Shown here piece after piece: positions 3,319-41,412 of a stretch of DNA of 41,412 bases (position 1 is its first letter; each line of letters opens with the position of its first letter). Source of the stretch: a virus; the IMG/VR virus record IMGVR_UViG_3300029580_000011, one strand, 5' to 3'. Both the position numbers and the translations under genes were made by a program. The notes under the pieces are model-generated. The model was not told the origin of the DNA. It was given only the letters and a program-made list of their open reading frames with translations, and made no database searches.

Positions 3319-4053
3319 GTGGCACAGGACGATAAAAAGTCATTTGTGGCGTATCTGAGCTGGTTCGACGCGCTGGAAGAATACTCCGACGCAGAGGTTG
3401 GACAGTTGATGCGAGCTCTTGCACGGTATGCCAAAAACGGAGAAGAGCCCGAATTTTCAGACCGTGGGATGCGTGGCAACTGGAAATTTATGTGCAGCGA
3501 CGTAAAACGGGCGTCTGAAAAATGGGATGAAACCCGCAAGAAACGCAGCAACGCCGGAAAACGCGGTATGGCAAAACGCTGGGGAAAGCCTGACGACATA
3601 ACAAAAATAACAAACGATAACAATGTTAATGACGACATAACAAAAATAACTGTAGATGTAGATGTAAATGGAGATGTAGATGTAGATGGGGATGTAGATG
3701 TTGTAAAGCGCGATAACACCGCCGCCGTTGATATGGAGTTATCAAAAATCGTCCAGCATTACCAGCGGGCTATCGGAGACTTCCCGCGTTCGGCGCTGGA
3801 AAAACTGCAAAAATGGCGGCAGGAGTACAGCACGGAGATGATTTTGCTGGCGATCGACAAGGCCGCAGAGGCCGGGAAGCGCTCGTGGAACTACATCAAC
3901 GGCATCCTGTCTGGCTGGCAGCGGGACGGGATACGCACCCCGGGGGACGTGGCAGCGAATGAGCAGCGCCGACAAGAGCAGCCTCGCGGGAAGCAAGCCA
4001 CAGAAAGCACCGCAGAAGCATACGCAAATATTTTCAAGGGGGTGAAACCGTGA
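3319..4053 (+). CDS. replisome organiser / DnaD-domain replication initiation protein
   Basis: GTG start after AAAGGAGG. The C-terminal region AIGDFPRSALEKLQKWRQEYSTEMILLAIDKAAEAGKRSWNYINGILSGW is DnaD-like. An AT-rich repeat block lies in the linker. Confidence 0.8.
   Translation: MAQDDKKSFVAYLSWFDALEEYSDAEVGQLMRALARYAKNGEEPEFSDRGMRGNWKFMCSDVKRASEKWDETRKKRSNAGKRGMAKRWGKPDDITKITNDNNVNDDITKITVDVDVNGDVDVDGDVDVVKRDNTAAVDMELSKIVQHYQRAIGDFPRSALEKLQKWRQEYSTEMILLAIDKAAEAGKRSWNYINGILSGWQRDGIRTPGDVAANEQRRQEQPRGKQATESTAEAYANIFKGVKP
3592..3705. repeat. candidate replication origin iterons inside the DnaD-like gene
   Basis: A 20-bp perfect direct repeat gacgacataacaaaaataac at 3592 and 3631. GATGTAGATGTA modules at 3655, 3673 and 3691 with 18-bp phasing. 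Locally AT-rich. Confidence 0.55.
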
Positions 4054-7273: not shown

Positions 7274-7348
7274 ACTCCGGTAGCTCAAGTGGTAGAGAGC
7301 AGCGGTCTCCAAAACCGCATGTTGCAGGTTCGAGTCCTGCCGGGAGTG
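7274..7348 (+). tRNA. tRNA-Trp (anticodon CCA)
   Basis: Manual cloverleaf: actccgg-ta-gctc-aagtggtaga-gagc-a-gcggt-CTCCAAA-accgc-atgtt-gcagg-TTCGAGT-cctgc-cgggagt-g. One G-G mismatch in the acceptor; no encoded CCA. Confidence 0.8.
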
Positions 7349-7414
7349 CTTGCATGATCTGACGAGAGCGGGGAGTGCAATAGCGGGGCATCCAGCCGCG
7401 AAAGTTCTGGACGC

Positions 7415-7453: not shown

Positions 7454-7589
7454 GCCGTCATAGCTCAATAGGCAGAGCGCCGCCCATTTAAGGCGGGACA
7501 ACGGTGGTGACACCACGGGAACATCACTGCACAGCCAACCACTGCGCACATCCATTCCGTGGGTGCCGGTTCGAATCCGGCTGGCGGCG
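7454..7589 (+). tRNA. tRNA-Lys(UUU)-like gene with A33 and a 68-nt insertion at the variable-arm position
   Basis: Canonical acceptor (gccgtca/tggcggc), D arm (gctc-aataggca-gagc), anticodon arm ccgcc-CATTTAA-ggcgg and T arm gccgg-TTCGAAT-ccggc. nt 7497-7564 replace the 4-5 nt variable loop. Confidence 0.45.
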
Positions 7590-7659: not shown

Positions 7660-8172
7660 GTGGCCTACAGCAAAAACAAAAGGATAGGCAGACCGCCCGT
7701 CTTTGAGAGCAAAGAAGAACTTGAGAAAAAAATCGAAGAGTTCTTCAAAAGCTGCGAAGGGAGCGTCCTAGAAGACGAAACCGGAAAGCCTGTTTTGGAC
7801 AAATACGGAAACGTGATAAAAATCGACGAACGTCCAGAAACGGTCACCGGTCTAGCTTTGGCGTTGGGATTTAAGTCTCGGCAATCTTTGATTGACTATC
7901 AAGGCAAGCCCGAGTTTTCTGACACGATAACGCGCGCGAAGCTTCGATGCGAGAGATACGCCGAAGAACGGCTCTATGATCGTGACGGAAACGGCGGCGC
8001 AAGATTCAGCCTGCAAGTTAATTTTGGTTGGAACGATAAGCCGAAAGAAGCGGAGCAGGAAGAGCGTCACGATGATGGTTTGATAAAGGCATTGAATGCT
8101 GCCGCAGATGTCAGCCCGCCGGATGACGTGGAGATGCTGCCAGAGGAAGAGGATGACCATGCGGAAAAGTAA
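7660..8172 (+). CDS. terS: terminase small subunit
   Basis: GTG 8 nt after GAGAGG. N-terminus AYSKNKRIGRPPVFESKEELEKKIEEFF is HTH-type. It overlaps terL. The upstream part of track ORF 7504 covers the tRNA-like gene and is rejected. Confidence 0.7.
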   Translation: MAYSKNKRIGRPPVFESKEELEKKIEEFFKSCEGSVLEDETGKPVLDKYGNVIKIDERPETVTGLALALGFKSRQSLIDYQGKPEFSDTITRAKLRCERYAEERLYDRDGNGGARFSLQVNFGWNDKPKEAEQEERHDDGLIKALNAAADVSPPDDVEMLPEEEDDHAEK

Positions 8173-9406
8173 CGGTTTTCGCTGGAAAGCCCTCAGCCAG
8201 CGGCAAAAGATGGTTCTTTGCTGGTGGACACCGCAGAGCGCATACAGCGGCTACAACGGCATCATTGCCGATGGCGCTATTCGCTCGGGCAAGACCTTTG
8301 CCATGAGCTTTTCGTTCGTTCAGTGGGCCATGACCTGCTACAGCGGCCAGCAGTTTGCCATGTGCGGCAAGACCATTGCCAGCTTCCGGCGTAACGTGCT
8401 GGGGACGCTCAAACAGCAGCTTGCAGCCCGTGGCTACAACGTCAAGGAGCATCGGGCAGAAAACTGCATGACCGTCAGCAAGGGCGGAAGAACCAACGAG
8501 TTTTATTTTTTCGGCGGCAAGGACGAGAGCAGTCAGGACCTGATTCAGGGTATCACCCTTGCGGGCGCATTCTTCGACGAGGTGGCCCTGATGCCGCAAA
8601 GCTTCGTCAATCAGGCCACAGCCCGTTGCTCTGTCACCGGGTCAAAGTTCTGGTTCAACTGCAACCCGGGCAGCCCGCAGCACTGGTTTTATCTCGAGTG
8701 GGTGCGGAAATGCCGTTCCCGCAAGATGATGTATCTCCATTTCACGATGGACGACAACCTGTCGCTTTCCGAGGACATCAAGGCCAGATACCGCAGCCAG
8801 TACAGCGGCGTTTTCTATCAGCGCTACATTCTGGGCCTGTGGACGGTGGCTGAGGGCCTTGTATATGACATGTTCGACCGCAAAAAGCACGTCGTTGACG
8901 AGTTGCCGGAGCTTTCGCCAAAGAGCGCCTATGTGGCGTGCGACTTTGGAACCCAGAACGCAACGACCTTTTTGCTGTTCCAAAAGCAGGCAGATGCAGA
9001 CTGCTGGATCGTCACCCGGGAGTACTACTACAGCGGCCGCGAACAGAAGCGGCAAAAGACCGTGGGCGAGTATGTTGCAGACCTCAAGGCATGGCTGAAT
9101 GGTCTCAAGCCGGAGAGGATCATTGTGGACCCGTCGGCCCTGCCGCTGATCACAGAGTTGCGAAAGAACGGCTTTACCCAGACGCCCGCAAACAATGATG
9201 TCCTGAGCGGCATTCTGGACGTACAGACCATGCTGCAGACCGGGCGGCTGAAAATATACAAGGACTGCAAGCACACGCTGGAAGAGTTCGGCGTGTACGC
9301 TTGGGATCCAGATAAAGACGACACCGTGCTGAAGGTCAATGACCACTGCATGGACGCTATCCGCTATTTCGTGCGCACAAAGCGCCTTGTGAAACTGAGG
9401 GATTGA
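8159..9406 (+). CDS. terL: terminase large subunit (PBSX/Terminase_3-like)
   Basis: Walker A motif ADGAIRSGKT. Conserved FFDEVALMP and a C-terminal nuclease region HCMDAIRY. Confidence 0.9.
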   Translation: MRKSNGFRWKALSQRQKMVLCWWTPQSAYSGYNGIIADGAIRSGKTFAMSFSFVQWAMTCYSGQQFAMCGKTIASFRRNVLGTLKQQLAARGYNVKEHRAENCMTVSKGGRTNEFYFFGGKDESSQDLIQGITLAGAFFDEVALMPQSFVNQATARCSVTGSKFWFNCNPGSPQHWFYLEWVRKCRSRKMMYLHFTMDDNLSLSEDIKARYRSQYSGVFYQRYILGLWTVAEGLVYDMFDRKKHVVDELPELSPKSAYVACDFGTQNATTFLLFQKQADADCWIVTREYYYSGREQKRQKTVGEYVADLKAWLNGLKPERIIVDPSALPLITELRKNGFTQTPANNDVLSGILDVQTMLQTGRLKIYKDCKHTLEEFGVYAWDPDKDDTVLKVNDHCMDAIRYFVRTKRLVKLRD

Positions 9407-10803
9407 TTTTGAGCACTGTATACACATTCCAGACATTTCAGCAGGCGCAAGCCGCCGGGGAACAGCCTGATTTCATCCGGCGGTTCGTGCAGCAGCACTG
9501 CAGTTCCGGACCATACAAGATGGCACTGGACGCCGACCTGTACGACGCACAGAAAAACCCGGGGGCTGAACGCTTCGCGCAGGCTTACGCTTTGATGCTG
9601 AAACGCCTATCCAAAAACACCAAGCAAGACATCCTACACCCCGATATGGTCAAGAGCAATCTTTTTCGGCGGCTCAACAAGCAGAGAGCCACCTACTCCC
9701 TCGGCAACGGCGTGGTCTTTGCGGACGATGGCGTGGACAAGGGCAAGCTGGGGCAGAACTTTGATGAGCAGATCCAGAAAGCCGGATATTTTGCCCTGAT
9801 CCACGGCGAGAGCTTTGGCTTCTGGAACAACGACCATCTGGTGGTTTTCAAGCTGACCGAGTTCGCTCCCCTGTACGATGAAAAGACAGGACTTTTGCAG
9901 GCGGGTGTGCGCTTCTGGCGGCTGAACCCGGACACGGATATGCACTATATCCTGTACGAGTTGGACGGCTTCACTGAGTACACGGAAAGCAAAATCGGCA
10001 ATGTGATGCAAGAGACAACGCCGAAGCAGGCATACAAGAGCGTGACCGTCACCACACCCGGCGGCGGGCTGGAAAGCGTGGAGGGCGAAAACTACAGCGC
10101 CCTGCCAATTGTTCCACTGTGGGGCTCCGACCTGCACCAGAGCACGCTTGTGGGCTTAAAAGCCTACATTGACAACACCGATTTGGTGATGTCCGGCTTC
10201 TGCAATGACCTGCAGGACTTTTCGCAGATCTACTGGCTGTGCGAGAACTTCAACGGAATGACCGATGACGAGCTGCAGGAGTTCCTTGTCAAGCTGAATC
10301 TGTACCACATTGCAGGCGCAGACACCAGCGAGGGCGGCAAGATCACCCCCTACACCACCGAGATTCCTGTGACGGCCCGGCAGGCGCTGCTGGAACTGCT
10401 GCACACCCGGGTGTATGAGGACTTCGGCGGTCTGGATGTGCACTGTGTGAGCGCGGACAGCACCAACGACCATCTGGATGCAGCCTATGAACCGCTGAAC
10501 CAGAACGCGGACGATTTCGAGGCTCAGGTCAAGCCGTTCATACGGCAGATCTGCGCACTGGCGGGCTTTGACAACGCTATGCCGGCATTCAACCGCAGCA
10601 AGATCACCAACACCGCCGAGCAGGTCGCAACGGTGATTTCTGAGGCACCGATCATCGGGCAGGACATGGCCATTGATCTGCTGCCCAACCTGACCCCGGA
10701 ACAAAAGGAGCAGGCAAAGGCCGCGCTGATGGCGGAGAGCGCAGAACGGGAAACCGCGGGCGAGAATGAGGAAGAGGAGGACAACGAGGATGAAAATTCA
10801 TGA
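9403..10803 (+). CDS. portal protein (SPP1 gp6-like)
   Basis: 466 aa directly after terL with an acidic C-terminus. The TTG start at 9403 is uncertain. Confidence 0.8.
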   Translation: MILSTVYTFQTFQQAQAAGEQPDFIRRFVQQHCSSGPYKMALDADLYDAQKNPGAERFAQAYALMLKRLSKNTKQDILHPDMVKSNLFRRLNKQRATYSLGNGVVFADDGVDKGKLGQNFDEQIQKAGYFALIHGESFGFWNNDHLVVFKLTEFAPLYDEKTGLLQAGVRFWRLNPDTDMHYILYELDGFTEYTESKIGNVMQETTPKQAYKSVTVTTPGGGLESVEGENYSALPIVPLWGSDLHQSTLVGLKAYIDNTDLVMSGFCNDLQDFSQIYWLCENFNGMTDDELQEFLVKLNLYHIAGADTSEGGKITPYTTEIPVTARQALLELLHTRVYEDFGGLDVHCVSADSTNDHLDAAYEPLNQNADDFEAQVKPFIRQICALAGFDNAMPAFNRSKITNTAEQVATVISEAPIIGQDMAIDLLPNLTPEQKEQAKAALMAESAERETAGENEEEEDNEDENS

Positions 10804-32859: not shown

Positions 32860-33993
32860 TCAATACTTCATCTTTTGCATTTCCCGCAATAGATAATCCG
32901 GGTCGTTGTGGGAGACGTACTTGTTGGCTGTGGTGGAAAAATTTTTGTGGCCCAAGATGGCCTGTACGGCGGTCTTTTCCAGGCCGCACTCCACCATCTT
33001 GCTGCTGGCCGTGTGGCGCAGCGTATGCGGATGTACCCCCTCTATGTGGCACTCCTGCATCAAGGCCCGAAACTTTGTAGCCACGTTGCGCTTGTCCAGC
33101 TTTGTACCGGCTTTGGACGGTATCAGCCATTCACACCCGCTGTCCAGCATCCAAAAGGCAATGATCTTGTAAACGGGCTCAAGGATGGGGATAATGCGGT
33201 TTTTGCCCGCCTCGGTCTTTTCGCCGCCCTGCATATACCGCTCTTTTAGATGCACATCGTCGCAGCGTATGGAGAGCAGCTCATCGATACGCATACCGGT
33301 GTAGAGCAGCACCATTGCGATTTGTGCTGTCTGCCCAAGCTTCGGGTCGTCTTGTCGGCTGCTTATCTGCTCTATCTCTTGAGCGGTCAAGGTGCGCTCT
33401 GCCTTGCCTGTAGCCGCTGGGAGCTGCAAGAGCATGGCATAGTTTTTGTTTATGATGTCCTGAGCCATTGCCCACTCGCAGATCTGGCTGAAAAGTGTGC
33501 GCTGCTTTTCGCATGAGCTGCGGGAGAGGCCCTTTTCCACCATCTGGTCAATCACCTGTTGATAGTCTGCGGCTTTTAAGTCCCGAAGCTGTCGGTCATA
33601 CAGCGGCGCAGCCTTTGCATAAGCCAGCTCATAACCCTTTTTCATGTCAGTGCTAAGCTTGTCAAATTTGGGCTGAGCTTTCCATTGGGCATAGGCATCC
33701 GCAAAAGTGCATTTCAGACGCGCTGCGGGGGTGTTCTGGGCGTTGTAAGCGTCCAGTGCTTGTACTGCTTCGCCCGGCGTCGCAAACGTCCCCAGAACGT
33801 CTCGCTTGGCTGTCAGGGCCACATACGGCTTTGACCTCGTCCCGCTCAACTTATATACACTGCCGCTGCCCTTTGGGCGGCGGCGCTTTTTTCTTTGCTG
33901 CGGGGCTGCTTCGGGCTGCTTCTTGCCGCAGTAGGGGCAAAAAGATGCATCGTCCGGTATTTCCCGACGGCAGCAGGCGCGAATGCACTTCAA
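32860..33993 (-). CDS. int: tyrosine integrase with N-terminal zinc ribbon and AP2-like DNA-binding domain
   Basis: TGMRIDELL, HTLRHT, LGH and a C-terminal Y fit R..HxxR..Y. N-terminal CCRREIPDDASFCPYCG. Confidence 0.9.
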   Translation of the reverse strand: MKCIRACCRREIPDDASFCPYCGKKQPEAAPQQRKKRRRPKGSGSVYKLSGTRSKPYVALTAKRDVLGTFATPGEAVQALDAYNAQNTPAARLKCTFADAYAQWKAQPKFDKLSTDMKKGYELAYAKAAPLYDRQLRDLKAADYQQVIDQMVEKGLSRSSCEKQRTLFSQICEWAMAQDIINKNYAMLLQLPAATGKAERTLTAQEIEQISSRQDDPKLGQTAQIAMVLLYTGMRIDELLSIRCDDVHLKERYMQGGEKTEAGKNRIIPILEPVYKIIAFWMLDSGCEWLIPSKAGTKLDKRNVATKFRALMQECHIEGVHPHTLRHTASSKMVECGLEKTAVQAILGHKNFSTTANKYVSHNDPDYLLREMQKMKY

Positions 33994-37272: not shown

Positions 37273-37386
37273 ATGAACACCACAGACCGACAAGGCTACA
37301 TTGACGCAATTATCAAGTTGCTGGAAAGGGCAGACCTGCGCAAGCTGCGCCTGGTCTGGGTTTACGCCAGCAGGCTGATTAAATAA
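37273..37386 (+). CDS. possible micro-ORF (37 aa)
   Basis: ATG 7 nt after AGGAGG. MNTTDRQGYIDAIIKLLERADLRKLRLVWVYASRLIK. Followed by the bidirectional terminator. Confidence 0.35.
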   Translation: MNTTDRQGYIDAIIKLLERADLRKLRLVWVYASRLIK

Positions 37387-37403: not shown

Positions 37404-37436
37404 AGGGGAACCCTTACGGGTTTCCCTCTTTTTTTT
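37404..37436. terminator. bidirectional terminator overlapping the stop codon of the repressor gene
   Basis: 10-bp stem aggggaaccc/gggtttccct with loop ttac (contains the TAA of the minus-strand gene). T run on the + strand, A run upstream. Confidence 0.7.
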
Positions 37437-37794
37437 GCAGCTTTCTCGCCATCCGCTCAAGAAATTTCCAGTCTTCGGGCTCCAGCTCGGCCAGAACTTC
37501 CACAAACTGCCGTTTGAAGCTGTCTTCTTCGTTCGCCGTAATGTCAGCGAGGAAAGCAGCCAGCTTCTCCGACTGGGTGATCTGGTTGAACATCTCTCCT
37601 TCACCGGTCCGCAGCCACGTCTCGTTGACGTTGAACTCACGGCAGATGTCGGAGATCGTTCGGTCGCTTGGCTCCACTACGTTTACTTCGTAGCTGCCAA
37701 CTGTATTTCTTTTGAGGTTCAGTCTGTCTGCAAAGGCTTGCTGCGTCAAGTTAATCTGCTTCCGCAGTTCCTTGACTCGTTCGCCGATTGTCAT
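37414..37794 (-). CDS. CI-like XRE-family repressor (126 aa)
   Basis: HTH segment TIGERVKELRKQINLTQQAFADRLNLKRNTVGSYE. ATG 8 nt after GGAGG. Divergent from the early operon. Confidence 0.85.
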   Translation of the reverse strand: MTIGERVKELRKQINLTQQAFADRLNLKRNTVGSYEVNVVEPSDRTISDICREFNVNETWLRTGEGEMFNQITQSEKLAAFLADITANEEDSFKRQFVEVLAELEPEDWKFLERMARKLQKKEGNP

Positions 37795-37815
37795 GGAGCT
37801 CACCTCCGTGACCTT

Positions 37816-37844
37816 ATTATAGCACAGCGCAAAATGGAAGTCAA
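37816..37844 (-). promoter_or_regulatory. repressor promoter TTGACT-17-TATAAT
   Basis: On the minus strand, -35 = 37844-37839 and -10 = 37821-37816. Confidence 0.6.
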
Positions 37845-37877
37845 TGAATTTTGTTTAAGAAATCAACAAAAATACCC

Positions 37878-37906
37878 TTGACAAATGTTGTTTAATGACT
37901 TATACT
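37878..37906 (+). promoter_or_regulatory. early rightward promoter TTGACA-17-TATACT
   Basis: -35 at 37878-83 and -10 at 37901-06. Flanked by aatcaacaaa repeats (37861, 37915) and ttgtttaa repeats (37851, 37888). Confidence 0.7.
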
Positions 37907-37949: not shown

Positions 37950-38126
37950 ATGAAACGCTATAAGGTGTACGTCTACAACACGGCTGATAGGTTCTGGGAC
38001 TGCTACGAGGTCCTTGCCGAGGACCCGGTGGACGCCCGGAACGTGGCGGTGCAGCGGTTGATCGACGAGACCGGGCATGGTCTGGACATCAACGAGCTGG
38101 CCGATGTGTGCGAAGTCAAAGAGTAA
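37950..38126 (+). CDS. first early gene (58 aa, Cro position; no HTH recognised)
   Basis: ATG 9 nt after AGGAGG. Below the track size cut-off. Confidence 0.5.
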   Translation: MKRYKVYVYNTADRFWDCYEVLAEDPVDARNVAVQRLIDETGHGLDINELADVCEVKE

Positions 38127-38980: not shown

Positions 38981-39187
38981 ATGGCAAAGACGAAGAAGAG
39001 CCGCACGGAGCTGGCAGCAGAGCGGTACAGCATCCCGGCAGATGGAGCACACGCAGCGGATACGCTTATCAACGTGCTGTTCGACGGCTTAGATCCGCAG
39101 GACAAGCTATCCCTGCTCTGGATGGGCATGGGCATGGCTGCGGTGCGTAAGAACGACCGCCAGACCGAGAACAACGGCGTGGCGTAA
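38981..39187 (+). CDS. hypothetical early protein (68 aa)
   Basis: ATG after AAGGAG. Internal start of track ORF 38954. Confidence 0.5.
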   Translation: MAKTKKSRTELAAERYSIPADGAHAADTLINVLFDGLDPQDKLSLLWMGMGMAAVRKNDRQTENNGVA

Positions 39188-39217
39188 GGACACAAACTTA
39201 TTTTGGAGGTTATCAAG

Positions 39218-39919
39218 ATGAAGAAAGCTACTACCAACGAGACCACGTTTATCTGTGTCAAACCCATCATCAAGGCCGAGTACACCATCCGCATTGTGGG
39301 CGACAGCCCCCTGCTGGTGCACGCATGGAGCGAGAAGGCCAAGAAGGAGATGCTGCAGGCGCAGCAGGGCAAGAAGCTCCTGAAAAAGGACAAGGTTGCC
39401 AAGAACCCGGCGGGCGAGTGCGCCGAGGCGCTCTACTGGCTGGATGGCAAGCCGGACATTGATTACAGCGACTGGACGGAAGATTTGCTGCACCAGTACG
39501 GCATGACCGCCCGCTTTGGCTTCCCGGCCTGCGCCGTCAAGGCTGCTGCCATTTCCGCAGCATACCGCATTGGCGCGATGAAGAACAAAGTCACCGGCAA
39601 CGGTCTGTTCCATGTTTTTGGCACTGACAACCCGGAGCTTATCGAGATTAAGACCTTCGATGAAAGCGAGCCGAAGTTTGAGATGGCAGAGGACGAGGTG
39701 AAAATCGGCATGGGTACCTCTGACCTGCGCTACCGCCCGAAGTTTTATAACTGGTACGCAGACCTGCGCATTGAGTACAACAGCGGCAGCGGCATGATCG
39801 ACCTGGACAGCATCCTGAACATGATCGAGCTTGGCGGCGACATGTGCGGTCTGGGCGAGTGGCGCATTGAAAAGGGCGGCAGCTGCGGCAAGTTCCACGT
39901 CAACAAGAACTTTGATTGA
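39218..39919 (+). CDS. conserved-looking early protein of unknown function (233 aa) with Gly-rich C-terminus
   Basis: ATG 8 nt after GGAGG. Motifs FGFPACAVKAAAISAAYR, DLRYRPKFYNW and GGDMCGLGEWRIEKGGSCGKFHV. Confidence 0.7.
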   Translation: MKKATTNETTFICVKPIIKAEYTIRIVGDSPLLVHAWSEKAKKEMLQAQQGKKLLKKDKVAKNPAGECAEALYWLDGKPDIDYSDWTEDLLHQYGMTARFGFPACAVKAAAISAAYRIGAMKNKVTGNGLFHVFGTDNPELIEIKTFDESEPKFEMAEDEVKIGMGTSDLRYRPKFYNWYADLRIEYNSGSGMIDLDSILNMIELGGDMCGLGEWRIEKGGSCGKFHVNKNFD

Positions 39920-40421
39920 TTTGGCTGGCTAGGCGAGCCAAGGCGGGCGTTGGCATGTTAAGCTTCGGCAGGGCCGGTTAGGCGAGCTACGGCGTTGTGT
40001 GGCTAGGCACGGCAGGCATGGTTAGACAGTCCGGGTTTAGGTAGATTCCGGTATGGCTGTTAAGGCGTGTTACGGTATTTTGTGTCTAGGCACGGCTGGT
40101 AGGGCTAGGAATGCCGAGGATTGGAAAGTCAAGGCGTGGCTGTCATGGACAGGCTAGTTTCGGAAGGTTTTGACCGGGTTTGGATTGGCTGGTTAGTCTG
40201 GGTGAGGCGCTTTTTGGAGTGGCTTGCTGAGGCAAGGTAAGGCTGTCCAGGTAAGGCGAGGCGGTGCCCCTTCGGGTAAGGTCAGGTTTGGTTATGCAGG
40301 GCAGGCATGGTTAGGAGCGGCGGAGTGAGGAATGCTCCGGTTAGGTATGTTTCGGCTGGCGAGGTGAGGCGAGTTGGGTTTTGCCGTGCTTCGGCTGGCA
40401 TGGAATGCCAAAATCAAAAAC
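39920..40421 (+). repeat. ORF-free G+T-skewed array of degenerate AGGC/YTAGG/TTCGG motifs
   Basis: 16 AGGC, 5 TTCGG and 5 CCGG(G)TT(T)(A)GG-type motifs. Exact repeats ggcaggcatggttag (40011, 40300) and ctaggcacggc (40003, 40086). The + strand is C-poor. Confidence 0.85.
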
Positions 40422-40433
40422 AGGAGGTTGCAT

Positions 40434-40994
40434 ATGAAAAATATCAAAGGTTATGCGTGGAAAAACGAGCGCACCGCAGCGTTCTACCACGCAACCGCAG
40501 AACAGGCGCATGAAGCGTTTGAAGAAATCCGCCAGCGGGACGGTAAGCTGACCCCGGAGGCGGTGGTGGACAGCGCAAGGCCGGAGGAATCGGTGCTGCA
40601 TGAGGACTTCGAGTGGCGGGACGATGTTGCCGCCGAGAAGTACCGGCAGGGGCAGGCCCGCCAGATGGTCGGCGCGGTGCGCATTATCCGCGAGGAGTGT
40701 CCGCCGGTGCGGGCATACGTCAATGTCAAGGTGGTTTCTTCCATGCCGCTGAAAGCCACTGATTGCATCCGTAAAGAGGATGAAGAGCCTGAGCAGACCA
40801 CCGAGGAAGAGAACGATGGCCGCTGCTATATGCCACTGGAAGAGGTTTTGCAAAAGCCAGACCTCTGCAATCAGATGATGGCAGATGCCCGGCGGGATGC
40901 TCAGACCTACAAGCAGAAATACAGCACGCTGGCAAGCCTTGCAAGCATCATGCAGGCTATCGACCAGACGTTTGAGGAGGACACCCATGAGTGA
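40434..40994 (+). CDS. hypothetical early protein (186 aa)
   Basis: ATG 6 nt after AGGAGG. Motif LTPEAVVDSARPEESVLHEDFEWRDDVAAEKYRQGQARQMV. Confidence 0.7.
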   Translation: MKNIKGYAWKNERTAAFYHATAEQAHEAFEEIRQRDGKLTPEAVVDSARPEESVLHEDFEWRDDVAAEKYRQGQARQMVGAVRIIREECPPVRAYVNVKVVSSMPLKATDCIRKEDEEPEQTTEEENDGRCYMPLEEVLQKPDLCNQMMADARRDAQTYKQKYSTLASLASIMQAIDQTFEEDTHE

Positions 40995-41412
40995 AAAGAT
41001 CATCGCATATAAGGCCATGGACAAAAATATGCAGTGCCGTGGCAAGCAGTACGAGGTGGGCAAGACCTACCATGAGGACAAGGCCGACTGCCGCAACGCT
41101 GGCATGCACGCCTGCGAGAACCCGCTGGATGTGCTGCACTACTACCCGTTGAGGGATGGCCCGCGTTTTTTTGAGGTCGAGTGCGGCGGGAACGTGGATA
41201 AAAGCGTAGAGGACAGCAAACTGGCCTGCACTGAGCTGACGGTGAAAGGCGAGGTGAATTTTGCAGGGCTGGTAAAAGCTACGGTGAACGCCGTTTTTAA
41301 TCGGGTGAAGGGCAAAGAACCTTTTTCCAGCGGCGATTACAGCACGGCGGGTTCCAGCGGCTATTCCAGCACGGCTGGTTCCAGCGGCTATTCCAGCACG
41401 GCGGGTTCCAGC
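40987..41412 (+). CDS. N-terminal part of the nonapeptide-repeat protein (runs off the window end, continues at nt 48/3-407)
   Basis: The ATG overlaps the upstream stop. 142 codons with no stop, ending in SSGDY-STAGSSGYS repeats. In phase with frame 3 at the window start. Confidence 0.7.
   Translation, partial: MSEKIIAYKAMDKNMQCRGKQYEVGKTYHEDKADCRNAGMHACENPLDVLHYYPLRDGPRFFEVECGGNVDKSVEDSKLACTELTVKGEVNFAGLVKATVNAVFNRVKGKEPFSSGDYSTAGSSGYSSTAGSSGYSSTAGSS
41326..41412 (+). repeat. 27-nt tandem repeat (same family as 1-194)
   Basis: tccagcggcgattac followed by agcacggc[gt]ggttccagcggctattcc units. Confidence 0.9.

What the first reader, a model, noticed from the sequence alone, without database searches (positions are those of the whole stretch)
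39920..40421. About 500 bp of ORF-free, G+T-skewed, motif-saturated sequence inside the early operon: not CRISPR, not a simple tandem repeat, not an obvious origin
The region runs from the stop at 39919 to the AGGAGG RBS at 40422-27.

Coding: there is no ORF of 60 aa or more on either strand until the unconvincing 40307 ORF.

Composition: the + strand is C-poor and G/T-rich. For example, 40021-40080 has 20 G, 21 T, 11 A and 8 C, unlike all flanking coding DNA.

Motifs:
- AGGC occurs 16 times between 39931 and 40370, mostly as [TCG][TAG]AGGCG[AT]G (ctaggcgag, ttaggcgag, taaggcgtg, caaggcgtg, taaggcgag, tgaggcgag).
- CCGG(G)TT(T)AGG / CCGGTATGG / CCGGGTTTGG occur 5 times (39974, 40031, 40048, 40174, 40337).
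- TTCGG occurs 5 times (39964, 40159, 40271, 40351, 40390), three of them as cTTCGg.
- GGCTGG occurs 5 times.
- Longer exact repeats are ggcaggcatggttag (40011, 40300) and ctaggcacggc (40003, 40086).

Spacing is irregular. The YTAGG core puts stop codons on both strands.

The motifs are all in one orientation and the region lies within a transcribed operon. Possible roles:
- A G/U-rich non-coding RNA carrying many SD-like (AAGG/GAGG/AGGAG) or GGA motifs, acting as a sponge or decoy.
- An oriented Chi-like or protein-binding site field.
- An R-loop-prone second origin.

I cannot discriminate among these from sequence alone. This is the least explainable feature of the window.
Basis: partly seen in the sequence, partly recalled or inferred. 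Interest (0 to 1): 0.8.

Follow-up and report, generated by a model that had tools for sequence, protein, structure and literature searches.

The report
Phage VIPR guide-RNA array (vrRNAs)
The 500-bp "motif-saturated" gap is an array of about ten guide RNAs built from GGYNN five-base repeats, placed right after a Cas7-like Vipr gene; it belongs to the VIPR systems described in 2026, which phages use to silence rival mobile elements.

Summary
One descriptor is wrong: the spacing is not irregular. The region (39927-40396) is a strict 5-nt periodic tract, G-G-Y-N-N. It is split into 10 blocks of 7-11 pentamers, and each block is closed by a 4-nt unit GGC[T/A/C], which shifts the register by -1. 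Period-5 power is 21 SD above dinucleotide shuffles, and no other tract like it exists in the window.

The gene immediately upstream (39218-39919) is a Vipr-type RAMP:
- Its profile matches the solved SUSP1 Vipr protein.
- Its AF2 model matches only Cas7-family proteins.
- The residues that read GGY in SUSP1 are conserved.

All 80 viral-contig relatives of this protein (38-98% identity) carry the same kind of array just downstream. In 89 of 95 loci a co-conserved 186-aa gene follows (40434-40994, candidate vap).

Guides from related ~57-kb elements match two adjacent in-frame sites in an antirepressor gene of the window's clade. They do so only under the published 1-nt-skip code.

So this is a VIPR locus (bioRxiv 2026) with a tail-less array that fits the paper's "staggered" architecture. 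Targets of the window's own guides were not found. The sponge, Chi-site and origin readings are not supported. It is a new member of a very recently described kind.

The parts
37878..37906 (+). Sigma-70-like early promoter (TTGACA-17-TATACT), paired with a divergent promoter for the HTH repressor gene. It is the presumed source of the transcript carrying vipr and the array.
   Evidence: 11 of 12 match; no promoter-like or terminator-like site on the + strand between here and the array. HTH repressor at 37414-37803(-). That this promoter transcribes the array is inferred.
39218..39919 (+). vipr: a 233-aa Cas7-like RAMP protein, the Vipr homolog. One protomer is expected to bind each pentamer of the RNA.
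   Evidence: - Start: ATG 39218 with GGAGG at 39205-39209.
- Family profile vs PDB: 36pp 'SUSP1 Vipr protein', E 1.9e-7.
- hhalign to a Felixounavirus Vipr: 96.6% probability.
- AF2 pLDDT 82.5.
- Foldseek: the listed top 50 matches are all CRISPR type III/VII effector-complex RAMP subunits, best E 2e-5.
- No Pfam, NCBIfam or PADLOC family.
39923..39926 (+). First GGCT junction-type unit. It sits 3 nt after the vipr stop codon and opens the array.
39927..39975 (+). Block 1: 9 pentamers + GGCC. NN string TA GA AA GG TT AT AA TC AG. Conserved guide.
   Evidence: The identical NN string is present in 11 close relatives. The same NN core recurs in the 82%-identity clade even though its GGY positions differ.
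39976..40014 (+). Block 2: 7 pentamers + GGCA. A paralog of block 4, sharing 10 of 14 NN bases.
40015..40058 (+). Block 3: 8 pentamers + GGCT.
   Evidence: shared with 1 relative.
40059..40097 (+). Block 4: 7 pentamers + GGCT.
   Evidence: shared with 6 relatives.
40098..40141 (+). Block 5: 8 pentamers + GGCT.
40142..40190 (+). Block 6: 9 pentamers + GGCT.
40191..40244 (+). Block 7: 10 pentamers + GGCT. Its NN string was found only in this window.
40245..40303 (+). Block 8: 11 pentamers + GGCA.
   Evidence: shared with L005 only.
40304..40357 (+). Block 9: 10 pentamers + GGCT. Its exact NN string is unique to this window. A 1-nt variant follows block 2 directly in L001.
   Evidence: The 15-nt repeat at 40011/40300 (a junction plus the first pentamers) is the likely recombination site that removes blocks 3-8 in L001-type arrays. 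This is inferred.
40358..40396 (+). Block 10: 7 pentamers + GGCT. It is conserved in 10 relatives and is self-complementary, forming a UUCG-capped hairpin. It may be structural rather than a guide.
   Evidence: Fold of 40358-40425: -25.6 kcal/mol, z -3.2.
40397..40421 (+). Array terminus: a small hairpin (GGCAUG-GAA-UGCC) followed by an A-rich stretch. A small hairpin occupies the same place in other clades.
   Evidence: window, L013, L028..
40434..40994 (+). Candidate vap (Vipr-accessory protein), 186 aa, with its RBS at 40422-40427. Fold and function are unknown.
   Evidence: - Homolog found downstream of vipr in 89 of 95 loci, down to about 21-39% identity.
- phrog_15946, function unknown.
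- No Pfam, NCBIfam, PADLOC or PDB match.
- AF2 pLDDT 71.7, pTM 0.42; no Foldseek match.

Best explanation
Bases 39218-40994 are a VIPR (Viral Interference Programmable Repeat) locus of a temperate human-gut phage. It consists of vipr, then a tail-less, 'staggered' array of about ten vrRNA guides, then a candidate vap gene.

Mechanism, with the basis for each step:
1. Inferred: the array is transcribed on the + strand together with vipr from the early promoter.
2. From the literature on SUSP1 and P. fulva VIPR: Vipr protomers coat the RNA, one per pentamer. Each GGY is sequestered through the G-loop, the thumb and a beta-sheet histidine. The two variable NN bases are left exposed.
3. Inferred: the -1 register shift at every GGC[T/A/C] junction delimits one guide of 7-11 pentamers from the next. 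The junction is the processing point or the filament boundary.
4. The rule comes from the literature and was shown here for relatives' guides: the NN dinucleotides of one guide read double-stranded DNA, skipping every third target base. The skipped base usually falls on the codon wobble position.
5. From the literature: binding forms a gapped R-loop triplex that blocks transcription.
6. Inferred: the natural targets are genes of competing phages or other mobile elements in the same host.

For: Protein:
- The family profile matches PDB 36pp 'SUSP1 Vipr protein' at E 1.9e-7. hhalign probability is 96.6%.
- The AF2 model (pLDDT 82.5) matches only Cas7-type RAMPs.
- The SUSP1 residues that recognise GGY are H17, R138, D177, W178, R179 and C173 (preprint 10.64898/2026.04.26.720927). 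They align to H40, R178, E219, W220, R221 and C215. Five of these are invariant and C215 is nearly invariant (at least 90%) among 34 family members.

RNA:
- Strict 5-nt periodicity is 21 SD above shuffles and unique in the window.
- The paper's criterion of at least 4 tandem YNNGG units is met at 40272-40291.
- The logo from 461 blocks in 81 loci is: position 1 G 91%; position 2 G 66% / T 24%; position 3 pyrimidine 89% (G 1%); positions 4-5 variable.
- My parser recovers the bona fide SUSP1-type vrRNAs in phage ekra, as a positive control.

Linkage:
- All 80 IMG/VR loci with a homolog (38-98% identity) have a period-5 array just downstream.
- The 186-aa gene co-occurs in 89 of 95 loci.

Guide-like evolution:
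- Blocks are gained, lost and swapped as cassettes between phages whose Vipr is 95-98% identical.
- Within homologous blocks, position 3 changes fastest, mostly C<->T (0.057 per site). NN positions are about twice as constrained (0.027 per site).

Code:
- With 196 guides against 1.38 Mb, only the 1-nt-skip rule gives excess matches. There are 21 hits at 90% or better, against 0, 3 and 0 in three permuted controls.
- On an enlarged database the count is 29, against 0-4 in controls.
- The significant matches are two adjacent sites 5 nt apart (19/20 and 21/22 bases). They lie in frame, with the skipped base at codon position 3, in a Rha/ANT antirepressor gene of the window's own clade.

Self-targeting:
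- The window's guides show no self-match above chance.
Against: - No target was found for any of the window's own guides. Exact-pattern scans of IMG/VR, JGI metagenomes and GTDB genomes gave nothing, or only chance hits in unrelated contigs of about 35% GC.
- Only 43 of 86 pentamers are strict GGY.
- Four blocks have only 7 pentamers, below the 9-16 reported for characterised vrRNAs.
- There is no 3' tail or pseudoknot as in type II systems.
- The sequence link to SUSP1 Vipr is significant only over the C-terminal ~65 residues.
- Transcription, processing and RNP formation were not observed here.
- Both papers are preprints.
Confidence: 0.9

Rival explanations
1. The region encodes a structured G/U-rich non-coding RNA that works independently of the upstream protein. 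One example is a sponge or decoy for an RNA-binding regulator or for ribosomes, acting through its SD-like or GGA motifs.
For: The + strand RNA folds much more strongly than the - strand: -195 kcal/mol (z -2.4) against -98 kcal/mol (z +1.1). Several AGGA and GAGG motifs are present.
Against: - No Rfam family matches at E up to 10, including the Csr/Rsm sponge families.
- Across 461 blocks the conserved feature is a 5-nt register, not a set of helices. Positions 4-5 vary freely.
- Fold energy is largely a composition effect. The terminal segments of two other clades have z of about 0.
- The obligatory linkage to a Cas7-like protein that retains its GGY-reading residues is left unexplained.
Confidence: 0.04
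2. The region is a DNA-level element. It could be a replication origin primed by an R-loop on the G-rich non-template strand, or an oriented field of protein-binding or Chi-like sites.
For: There is strong G skew on the non-template strand and all motifs point one way. The region lies in the early region of the phage.
Against: - There are no iterons of DNA-helical spacing and no AT-rich unwinding element. The repeat unit is 5 nt with freely variable positions 4-5.
- The phage has a DnaD/DnaB_2-type replication gene elsewhere, at 3319-4053.
- The ~57-kb relatives that carry the same kind of array have their own Rep3 and ParA replication module several kb away.
- The content of the array changes by cassettes between near-identical phages, which is not expected of an origin.
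- The GGCTGG strand bias outside the array is ordinary coding-strand bias.
Confidence: 0.03
3. The region is a decayed gene or another non-functional remnant whose composition happens to be skewed.
For: The region has no ORF and contains stop codons on both strands.
Against: - None of the 80 viral relatives has an intact gene in this position. All have the periodic array.
- The periodicity is 21 SD above a composition-matched null.
- Position-specific constraint is maintained across protein identities down to about 38%.
Confidence: 0.01

Closest known systems
Type II VIPR systems of Escherichia phage SUSP1 and a Pseudomonas fulva prophage (bioRxiv 10.64898/2026.04.26.720920 and 10.64898/2026.04.26.720927)
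   Same: - A small Cas7-like Vipr protein with a conserved G-loop (C-G-x-G-[DE]-W-R), thumb arginine and beta-sheet histidine.
- Guide RNAs made of GGY/NN pentamers on the same strand as vipr.
- A second, co-conserved small gene.
- A phage-borne location.
- The 1-nt-skip code, with the skipped base at the codon wobble position and a lysis-lysogeny regulator as target. This was shown here for guides of relatives.
   Different: - Protein similarity is about 32% identity and significant only over the C-terminal ~65 residues.
- The gene order is vipr-array-vap, not vipr-vap-array.
- The guides have no ~45-nt 3' tail or pseudoknot and no spacers between units. Blocks abut directly through a 4-nt GGCN unit.
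- Blocks are 7-11 pentamers rather than about 12.
- The candidate vap shows no detectable similarity to any solved structure.
'Staggered vrRNA arrays' mentioned in the same preprint (fig. S18: vrRNAs derived from positions overlapping by 1 nt, so that the end of one marks the start of the next)
   Same: The blocks here are contiguous and tail-less. Each junction is one base short of a pentamer. If it is read as GGCNG, it overlaps the next block's first G by exactly 1 nt.
   Different: The figure itself and the type assignment could not be read, so equivalence rests on the legend only. The preprint says that small-RNA sequencing confirmed the hammerhead-interspersed and single-vrRNA architectures, not the staggered one.
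Class 1 CRISPR-Cas effector backbones (Cas7/Csm3/Cmr4 filaments on crRNA)
   Same: The protein has a RAMP fold. The best structural matches are Csm3 and type VII Cas7. One protomer binds per fixed RNA step, with a thumb that periodically interrupts base pairing.
   Different: - There is no repeat-spacer array. The longest exact repeats are 15 and 11 nt.
- No adaptation or other cas genes are evident beside it.
- The step is 5 nt, with only 2 informative bases, instead of 6 nt with 5 informative bases.
- The element is encoded by a phage, not a host.
Csr/Rsm-type sponge RNAs (CsrB, RsmY/Z)
   Same: A non-coding RNA of several hundred nucleotides carrying many short G-rich motifs in one orientation.
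   Different: There is no Rfam match. The motifs are phased every 5 nt rather than displayed in hairpin loops. The element is linked to a RAMP protein, not to CsrA.

Membership tests
VIPR system | A Vipr protein: a minimal RAMP with an RRM core, a glycine-rich loop and a thumb. | tested here: met
   - Profile vs PDB 36pp 'SUSP1 Vipr protein': E 1.9e-7. hhalign probability 96.6%.
- AF2 pLDDT 82.5, with a beta-hairpin at 160-181 and a C-terminal Gly-rich loop.
- Foldseek: the listed top matches are all Cas7-type RAMPs.
VIPR system | The residues that sequester G1, G2 and Y3 are conserved (SUSP1 H17, R138, D177, W178, R179, C173). | tested here: met
   They align to H40, R178, E219 (D to E), W220, R221 and C215 in ORF numbering from 39203. 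H40, R178, E219, W220 and R221 are invariant and C215 is nearly invariant (at least 90%) in the 34-sequence family alignment. The H17/H40 alignment rests on a short N-terminal motif, IxIxGxxPxLxHA, that is not significant by score on its own.
VIPR system | Tandem YNNGG (GGY/NN) pentamer repeats, at least 4 units, in an intergenic region next to vipr. | tested here: met
   86 in-register pentamers lie directly after the vipr stop codon. A strict run of 4 YNNGG units lies at 40272-40291. Periodicity z is about 21. The positive control on a SUSP1-type locus is parsed correctly.
VIPR system | GGY positions are conserved and NN positions are hypervariable between guides. | tested here: met
   461 blocks give G 91%, G/T 90% and pyrimidine 89% at positions 1-3, and near-even base use at positions 4-5. 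There are 210 distinct NN strings.
VIPR system | Guides match foreign mobile elements under the 1-nt-skip rule. | tested here: inconclusive
   Met for guides of relatives: only skip = 1 gives excess hits, to two adjacent in-frame sites in a Rha/ANT antirepressor gene. Not met for the window's own guides: exact-pattern scans found nothing credible. A search allowing mismatches across public collections could not be run.
VIPR system | The guides do not target their own genome. | tested here: met
   The best matches of the window's 10 guides, in the window and in all loci, are at the level of permuted controls.
VIPR system | An associated accessory gene (vap). | tested here: inconclusive
   A 186-aa gene is co-conserved downstream of vipr in 89 of 95 loci. 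Its relationship to the published vap1-6 could not be tested because no sequences were available. Its fold is not recognisable.
VIPR system | vrRNAs are expressed, processed and co-purify with Vipr, and they repress transcription of targets. | not testable with these tools
   This needs small-RNA sequencing, a pull-down and reporter assays.
VIPR type II architecture (SUSP1-like) | Each vrRNA ends in an invariant structured 3' tail (a pseudoknot), and units are separated from one another. | tested here: not met
   Blocks abut through a 4-nt unit with no tail. Tails are obvious in the control locus L096.
VIPR hammerhead-interspersed architecture | Hammerhead ribozymes lie between the guides. | tested here: not met
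   No hammerhead or any other Rfam match at E up to 10 in 39700-40600.
CRISPR array | Direct repeats of about 23-50 nt separated by unique spacers of similar length. | tested here: not met
   The longest exact repeats are 15 and 11 nt. TRF finds no array.
Csr/Rsm sponge RNA | A match to CsrB/RsmX/Y/Z-type covariance models, with GGA motifs in hairpin loops. | tested here: not met
   No Rfam match.

The most novel reading that the evidence does not exclude
In this large gut-phage clade the array may work as a single long 'punctuated' transcript. The -1 register shift at each GGCN junction, rather than a tail, a ribozyme or a dedicated nuclease, would end one Vipr filament and start the next. 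Ten independent guides, some with only 7 pentamers (14 informative bases), could then be deployed from one ~500-nt RNA. They would be exchanged between phages by recombination at the junctions. The co-conserved 186-aa protein of unrecognisable fold would be an accessory factor of a kind not yet described for VIPR.
Probability: 0.25. Interest if true: 0.6.

Novelty: new member of a known kind. Interest (0 to 1): 0.6.

Why it matters
VIPR is a newly reported mode of RNA-guided DNA recognition and a proposed ancestor of CRISPR effector proteins. So far it is characterised in only a few proteobacterial systems.

This locus shows the same logic in a temperate phage of the human gut. It also anchors a large uncultured family: about 1000 protein relatives, with 95 loci examined here. 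That family has a compact, tail-less, multi-guide array.

The relatives give an independent computational confirmation of the 1-nt-skip code. They also give a concrete natural conflict: phage-plasmid-like elements aiming two guides at the antirepressor gene of this phage's clade.

In practical terms:
- Such regions are invisible to ORF callers, Rfam, Pfam, NCBIfam, PADLOC and TRF. They are trivially found by a period-5 G test next to a Cas7-like gene.
- The short guides and the junction 'punctuation' are directly testable, and they are relevant to engineering minimal programmable repressors.

Tried and rejected
1. Rfam, at gathering thresholds on the whole window and permissively on 39700-40600. 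Only tRNAs were found elsewhere, and nothing in the region.

2. blastn of the locus against GenBank phages found no match. Pfam, PHROGs, NCBIfam and PADLOC on the flanking proteins returned only 'unknown function' families.

3. Single-strand folding. The strand asymmetry is real but mostly reflects composition. I did not pursue a covariation model, because what is conserved is a register, not helices.

4. Targets of the window's own guides.
- Full-length exact 1-nt-skip patterns for blocks 7, 8 and 9 in IMG/VR gave 0 hits.
- Block 8 in GTDB genomes gave 0 hits.
- Block 9 in metagenomes gave 0 hits.
- Block 6 in IMG/VR gave 0 hits.
- Block 1 gave 4 IMG/VR hits and 52 metagenome hits. Nearly all are in unrelated, mostly AT-rich contigs, many with stop codons in the relevant frame, so they are chance.
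- Blocks 3 and 5 gave 17 and 94 hits, with a median GC of 35%, so they are chance too.
- Local scans allowing mismatches, over 1.05 Mb of related loci, reached only the level of permuted controls.

5. I tested whether the junction contributes an extra NN (TG or AG) to the guide. The bases following the two antirepressor target sites do not fit (and the sequences).

6. Other period-5 spikes in the window, at 37316-37366, 38061-38111 and 39091-39156, do not parse as arrays.

7. The Chi-like reading of GGCTGG. Its strand bias is typical of this genome's coding strand.

8. The structure of the downstream protein has moderate confidence and no structural neighbour.

9. The VIPR type (I-VII) could not be assigned. 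The classification figures and sequence tables are not available as text.
Full report

Yes, in every countable detail.
- The upstream ORF stops at 39919. AGGAGG lies at 40422-40427 and the next ATG at 40434.
- The region 39920-40433 has G204, T131, A92 and C87. Its GC skew is +0.33 to +0.44, against about +0.1 in the flanking genes.
- Apart from the implausible 68-aa ORF at 40307, no ORF reaches 60 aa.
- All listed motifs are at the stated positions and only on the + strand.
- They exceed dinucleotide-preserving shuffles. For example, AGGC occurs 16 times against 4.3+-1.9.
- Tandem Repeats Finder and Rfam report nothing.

**2.

The spacing is not irregular.
- Distances between GGY triplets pile up at 5, 10, 15... 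and at 4, 9, 14....
- A phase-tracking parse for G-G-Y-N-N divides 39927-40396 into ten blocks of 9, 7, 8, 7, 8, 9, 10, 11, 10 and 7 in-register pentamers. Each block is closed by a 4-nt unit (GGCT, GGCA or GGCC) that shifts the register by -1.
- Of the 86 pentamers, 77 start with G, 76 have a pyrimidine at position 3 and only one has G there. Positions 4 and 5 use all bases.
- Local period-5 power of G is 1.39 against 0.24+-0.06 in 1000 shuffles. The parse score is 125 against -13+-9.
- No other tract of this kind exists on either strand of the window.

GGCTGG is the block junction. AGGCG.G is two successive pentamers. The 15-nt repeat at 40011/40300 is a junction plus the first pentamers of blocks 3 and 9.

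**3. The neighbouring gene.**

The ORF ending at 39919 really starts at ATG 39218, with GGAGG 8 nt upstream. It has no Pfam, NCBIfam or PADLOC family and only a PHROG of unknown function. Further evidence identifies it:
- A profile of 34 homologs matches one solved structure, PDB 36pp 'SUSP1 Vipr protein' (E 1.9e-7). The match covers the C-terminal beta-hairpin and Gly-rich loop.
- hhalign against the identical protein of Felixounavirus ekra gives 96.6% probability.
- An AlphaFold model (pLDDT 82.5) matches Cas7-family backbone proteins (Csm3, type VII Cas7, Cmr4), with a best E of 2e-5.

**4. The literature.**

Two 2026 preprints describe VIPR systems (10.64898/2026.04.26.720920 and 10.64898/2026.04.26.720927). 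Their account is as follows.
- A phage-borne minimal RAMP, Vipr, polymerises on vrRNAs made of 9-16 YNNGG repeats.
- Each protomer hides one GGY and exposes NN.
- The NN dinucleotides read double-stranded DNA while skipping every third base. This forms an R-loop triplex that silences transcription of competing phages and satellites.
- Seven types are described. Their array architectures include tailed units (type II), hammerhead-interspersed arrays, single vrRNAs, and 'staggered arrays' in which adjacent vrRNAs overlap by 1 nt.

The SUSP1 residues that read GGY are H17, R138, D177, W178, R179 and C173. They align to H40, R178, E219, W220, R221 and C215 of the window protein, in ORF numbering from 39203. 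All are invariant in the family alignment except C215, which is nearly invariant.

**5. Comparative evidence.**

- All 80 IMG/VR loci encoding a homolog (38-98% identity) have a strongly G-skewed, period-5 tract on the same strand. In most it starts immediately after the gene. In a few it comes after one intervening gene.
- The block architecture holds in every clade inspected: 7-14 pentamers with a mode of 9, and a GGCT or GGCA junction.
- Over 461 blocks the logo is G 91% at position 1, G 66% / T 24% at position 2, and pyrimidine 89% (G 1%) at position 3. Positions 4 and 5 are variable. There are 210 distinct NN strings.
- The window's array is almost identical to that of L004. L001 has a Vipr 97% identical, yet it keeps blocks 1, 2, 9 and 10, lacks blocks 3-8 and has other blocks instead. 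Blocks therefore behave as exchangeable cassettes. The 15-nt junction repeat is a plausible recombination site, which is an inference.
- Between nearest-neighbour homologous blocks, position 3 changes fastest, mostly C<->T (0.057 per site). NN positions change at 0.027 and 0.026 per site, and position 1 at 0.018. This is expected if any pyrimidine is acceptable at position 3 and NN carry the information.
- The 186-aa gene after the array (40434-40994) has a homolog downstream of vipr in 89 of 95 loci. That makes it the candidate accessory gene. Its fold is not recognisable.
- As a positive control, the same parser recovers the published type of vrRNA in a SUSP1-type locus: about 12 pentamers plus a ~45-nt tail. 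The control also shows that the window's array has no tails.

**6. Test of the recognition code.**

I converted 196 distinct guides from all loci to NN strings and scanned both strands of 1.38 Mb of local sequence with 0-3 skipped bases.
- Skip = 3 returns only the arrays themselves, as expected.
- Only the 1-nt-skip rule gives an excess of foreign matches. There are 21 hits at 90% or better, against 0, 3 and 0 in three permuted controls.
- On an enlarged database the count is 29, against 0-4 in controls.
- The significant hits come from guides of the ~57-kb relatives (L028, L032, L040, L041, L051, L068). Those elements carry Rep3 and ParA genes and look like phage-plasmids.
- The hits fall on two sites 5 nt apart (19/20 and 21/22 bases) in one gene of the window's own ~42-kb clade (L003, L007, L015, L016, L019-L021).
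- The sites are in frame, with the skipped base at codon position 3.
- The gene encodes a Rha + KilAC/ANT antirepressor (Pfam E 1e-34 and 1e-31).
- The window itself lacks this gene.

This independently reproduces the published rule and the published biology: lysis-lysogeny regulators of rival elements are the targets.

**7. The window's own guides.**

- They show no self-match above chance, in line with the preprint's finding of no self-targeting.
- No external target was found. The collection scans accept only exact patterns. They returned nothing for blocks 6, 7, 8 and 9, and only chance hits in unrelated AT-rich contigs for blocks 1, 3 and 5.
- Block 1 keeps its NN core (TA GA AA GG TT AT AA T.) in the 82%-identity clade even though its GGY bases differ. 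That argues it is a conserved guide whose target is not in the searchable data.
- Block 10 is self-complementary, with a UUCG-capped hairpin (z -3.2). A small hairpin follows the last junction in three clades. These may be structural end elements, which is an inference.

**8. Context.**

The window is a temperate phage from human gut samples.
- Integrase: 32860-33993 (-).
- HTH repressor: 37414-37803 (-).
- Divergent promoters: 37816-37906.
- DnaD/DnaB_2-type replication gene: 3319-4053.
- Terminase and portal: 8096-10803.

No promoter-like or terminator-like site on the + strand separates the early promoter from the array, so co-transcription with vipr is inferred. Relatives in GTDB genomes lie in Lachnospiraceae, Oscillospiraceae, Christensenella and similar MAGs at 47% identity or less. 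The host of this phage is therefore not identified.

**9. Verdict.**

The finding is a genuine and well-observed feature. It is a VIPR locus: vipr, then a tail-less multi-guide vrRNA array, then a candidate vap.
- It fits the 'staggered' architecture as described in a figure legend. The equivalence could not be verified, and the VIPR type could not be assigned.
- The sponge, Chi-site and origin readings are not supported.
- Because VIPR was described in 2026, this is a new member of a known kind. It adds a large gut-phage clade, shorter guides, a defined junction signal and a natural target example.
- Expression, processing and the window's own targets remain untested.

Noticed in passing
window 7454-7589 (+): A tRNA-like sequence scores 48.5 bits against the Rfam tRNA model. 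It carries an insertion of about 65 nt after the anticodon arm and has an unusual anticodon loop (CAUUUAA). ARAGORN does not call it. It lies beside a normal tRNA-Trp at 7274-7349.
   Followed up: no
L097-L106 (e.g. L097 5239-7133): The ~57-kb relatives whose guides hit the antirepressor gene encode a Rep3 initiator and a ParA ATPase beside their HTH switch. They look like phage-plasmids rather than integrating prophages.
   Followed up: partly
GenBank phages, e.g. MW534375.1 10331-10948, NC_051636.1 38222-38827: Homologs of the Vipr-like protein (32-35% identity, about 90% coverage) are annotated 'hypothetical protein' in 25 Mycobacterium phage records, 5 Gordonia phage records and one Pseudomonas record. 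I did not check them for arrays.
   Followed up: no
L069 3616-3840 and 5416-5515; L041 6771-7030 and L044 6731-6990; L056 8001-8095: Some related loci have additional period-5 G tracts away from the main array, either upstream of vipr or 2-3 kb downstream. These are possibly extra vrRNA arrays.
   Followed up: no
window 39976-40014 and 40059-40097: Blocks 2 and 4 are paralogs. They share 10 of 14 NN bases and an identical ending, GGCAC+GGC. This suggests duplication and divergence of a guide, perhaps to cover two variants of one target.
   Followed up: partly
window 1-32800: GGCTGG is strongly strand-biased outside the array (30 on +, 3 on -). Other hexamers show the same degree of bias (ATCGAC 23:2, TCAAGG 23:2), so this reflects coding-strand usage rather than a Chi-like signal.
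   Followed up: yes
window 41330-41412 (+): The DUF7666 protein that starts at 40987 runs into a Ser/Gly/Tyr-rich tandem peptide repeat (SSGYSSTAG...) at the end of the window.
   Followed up: no
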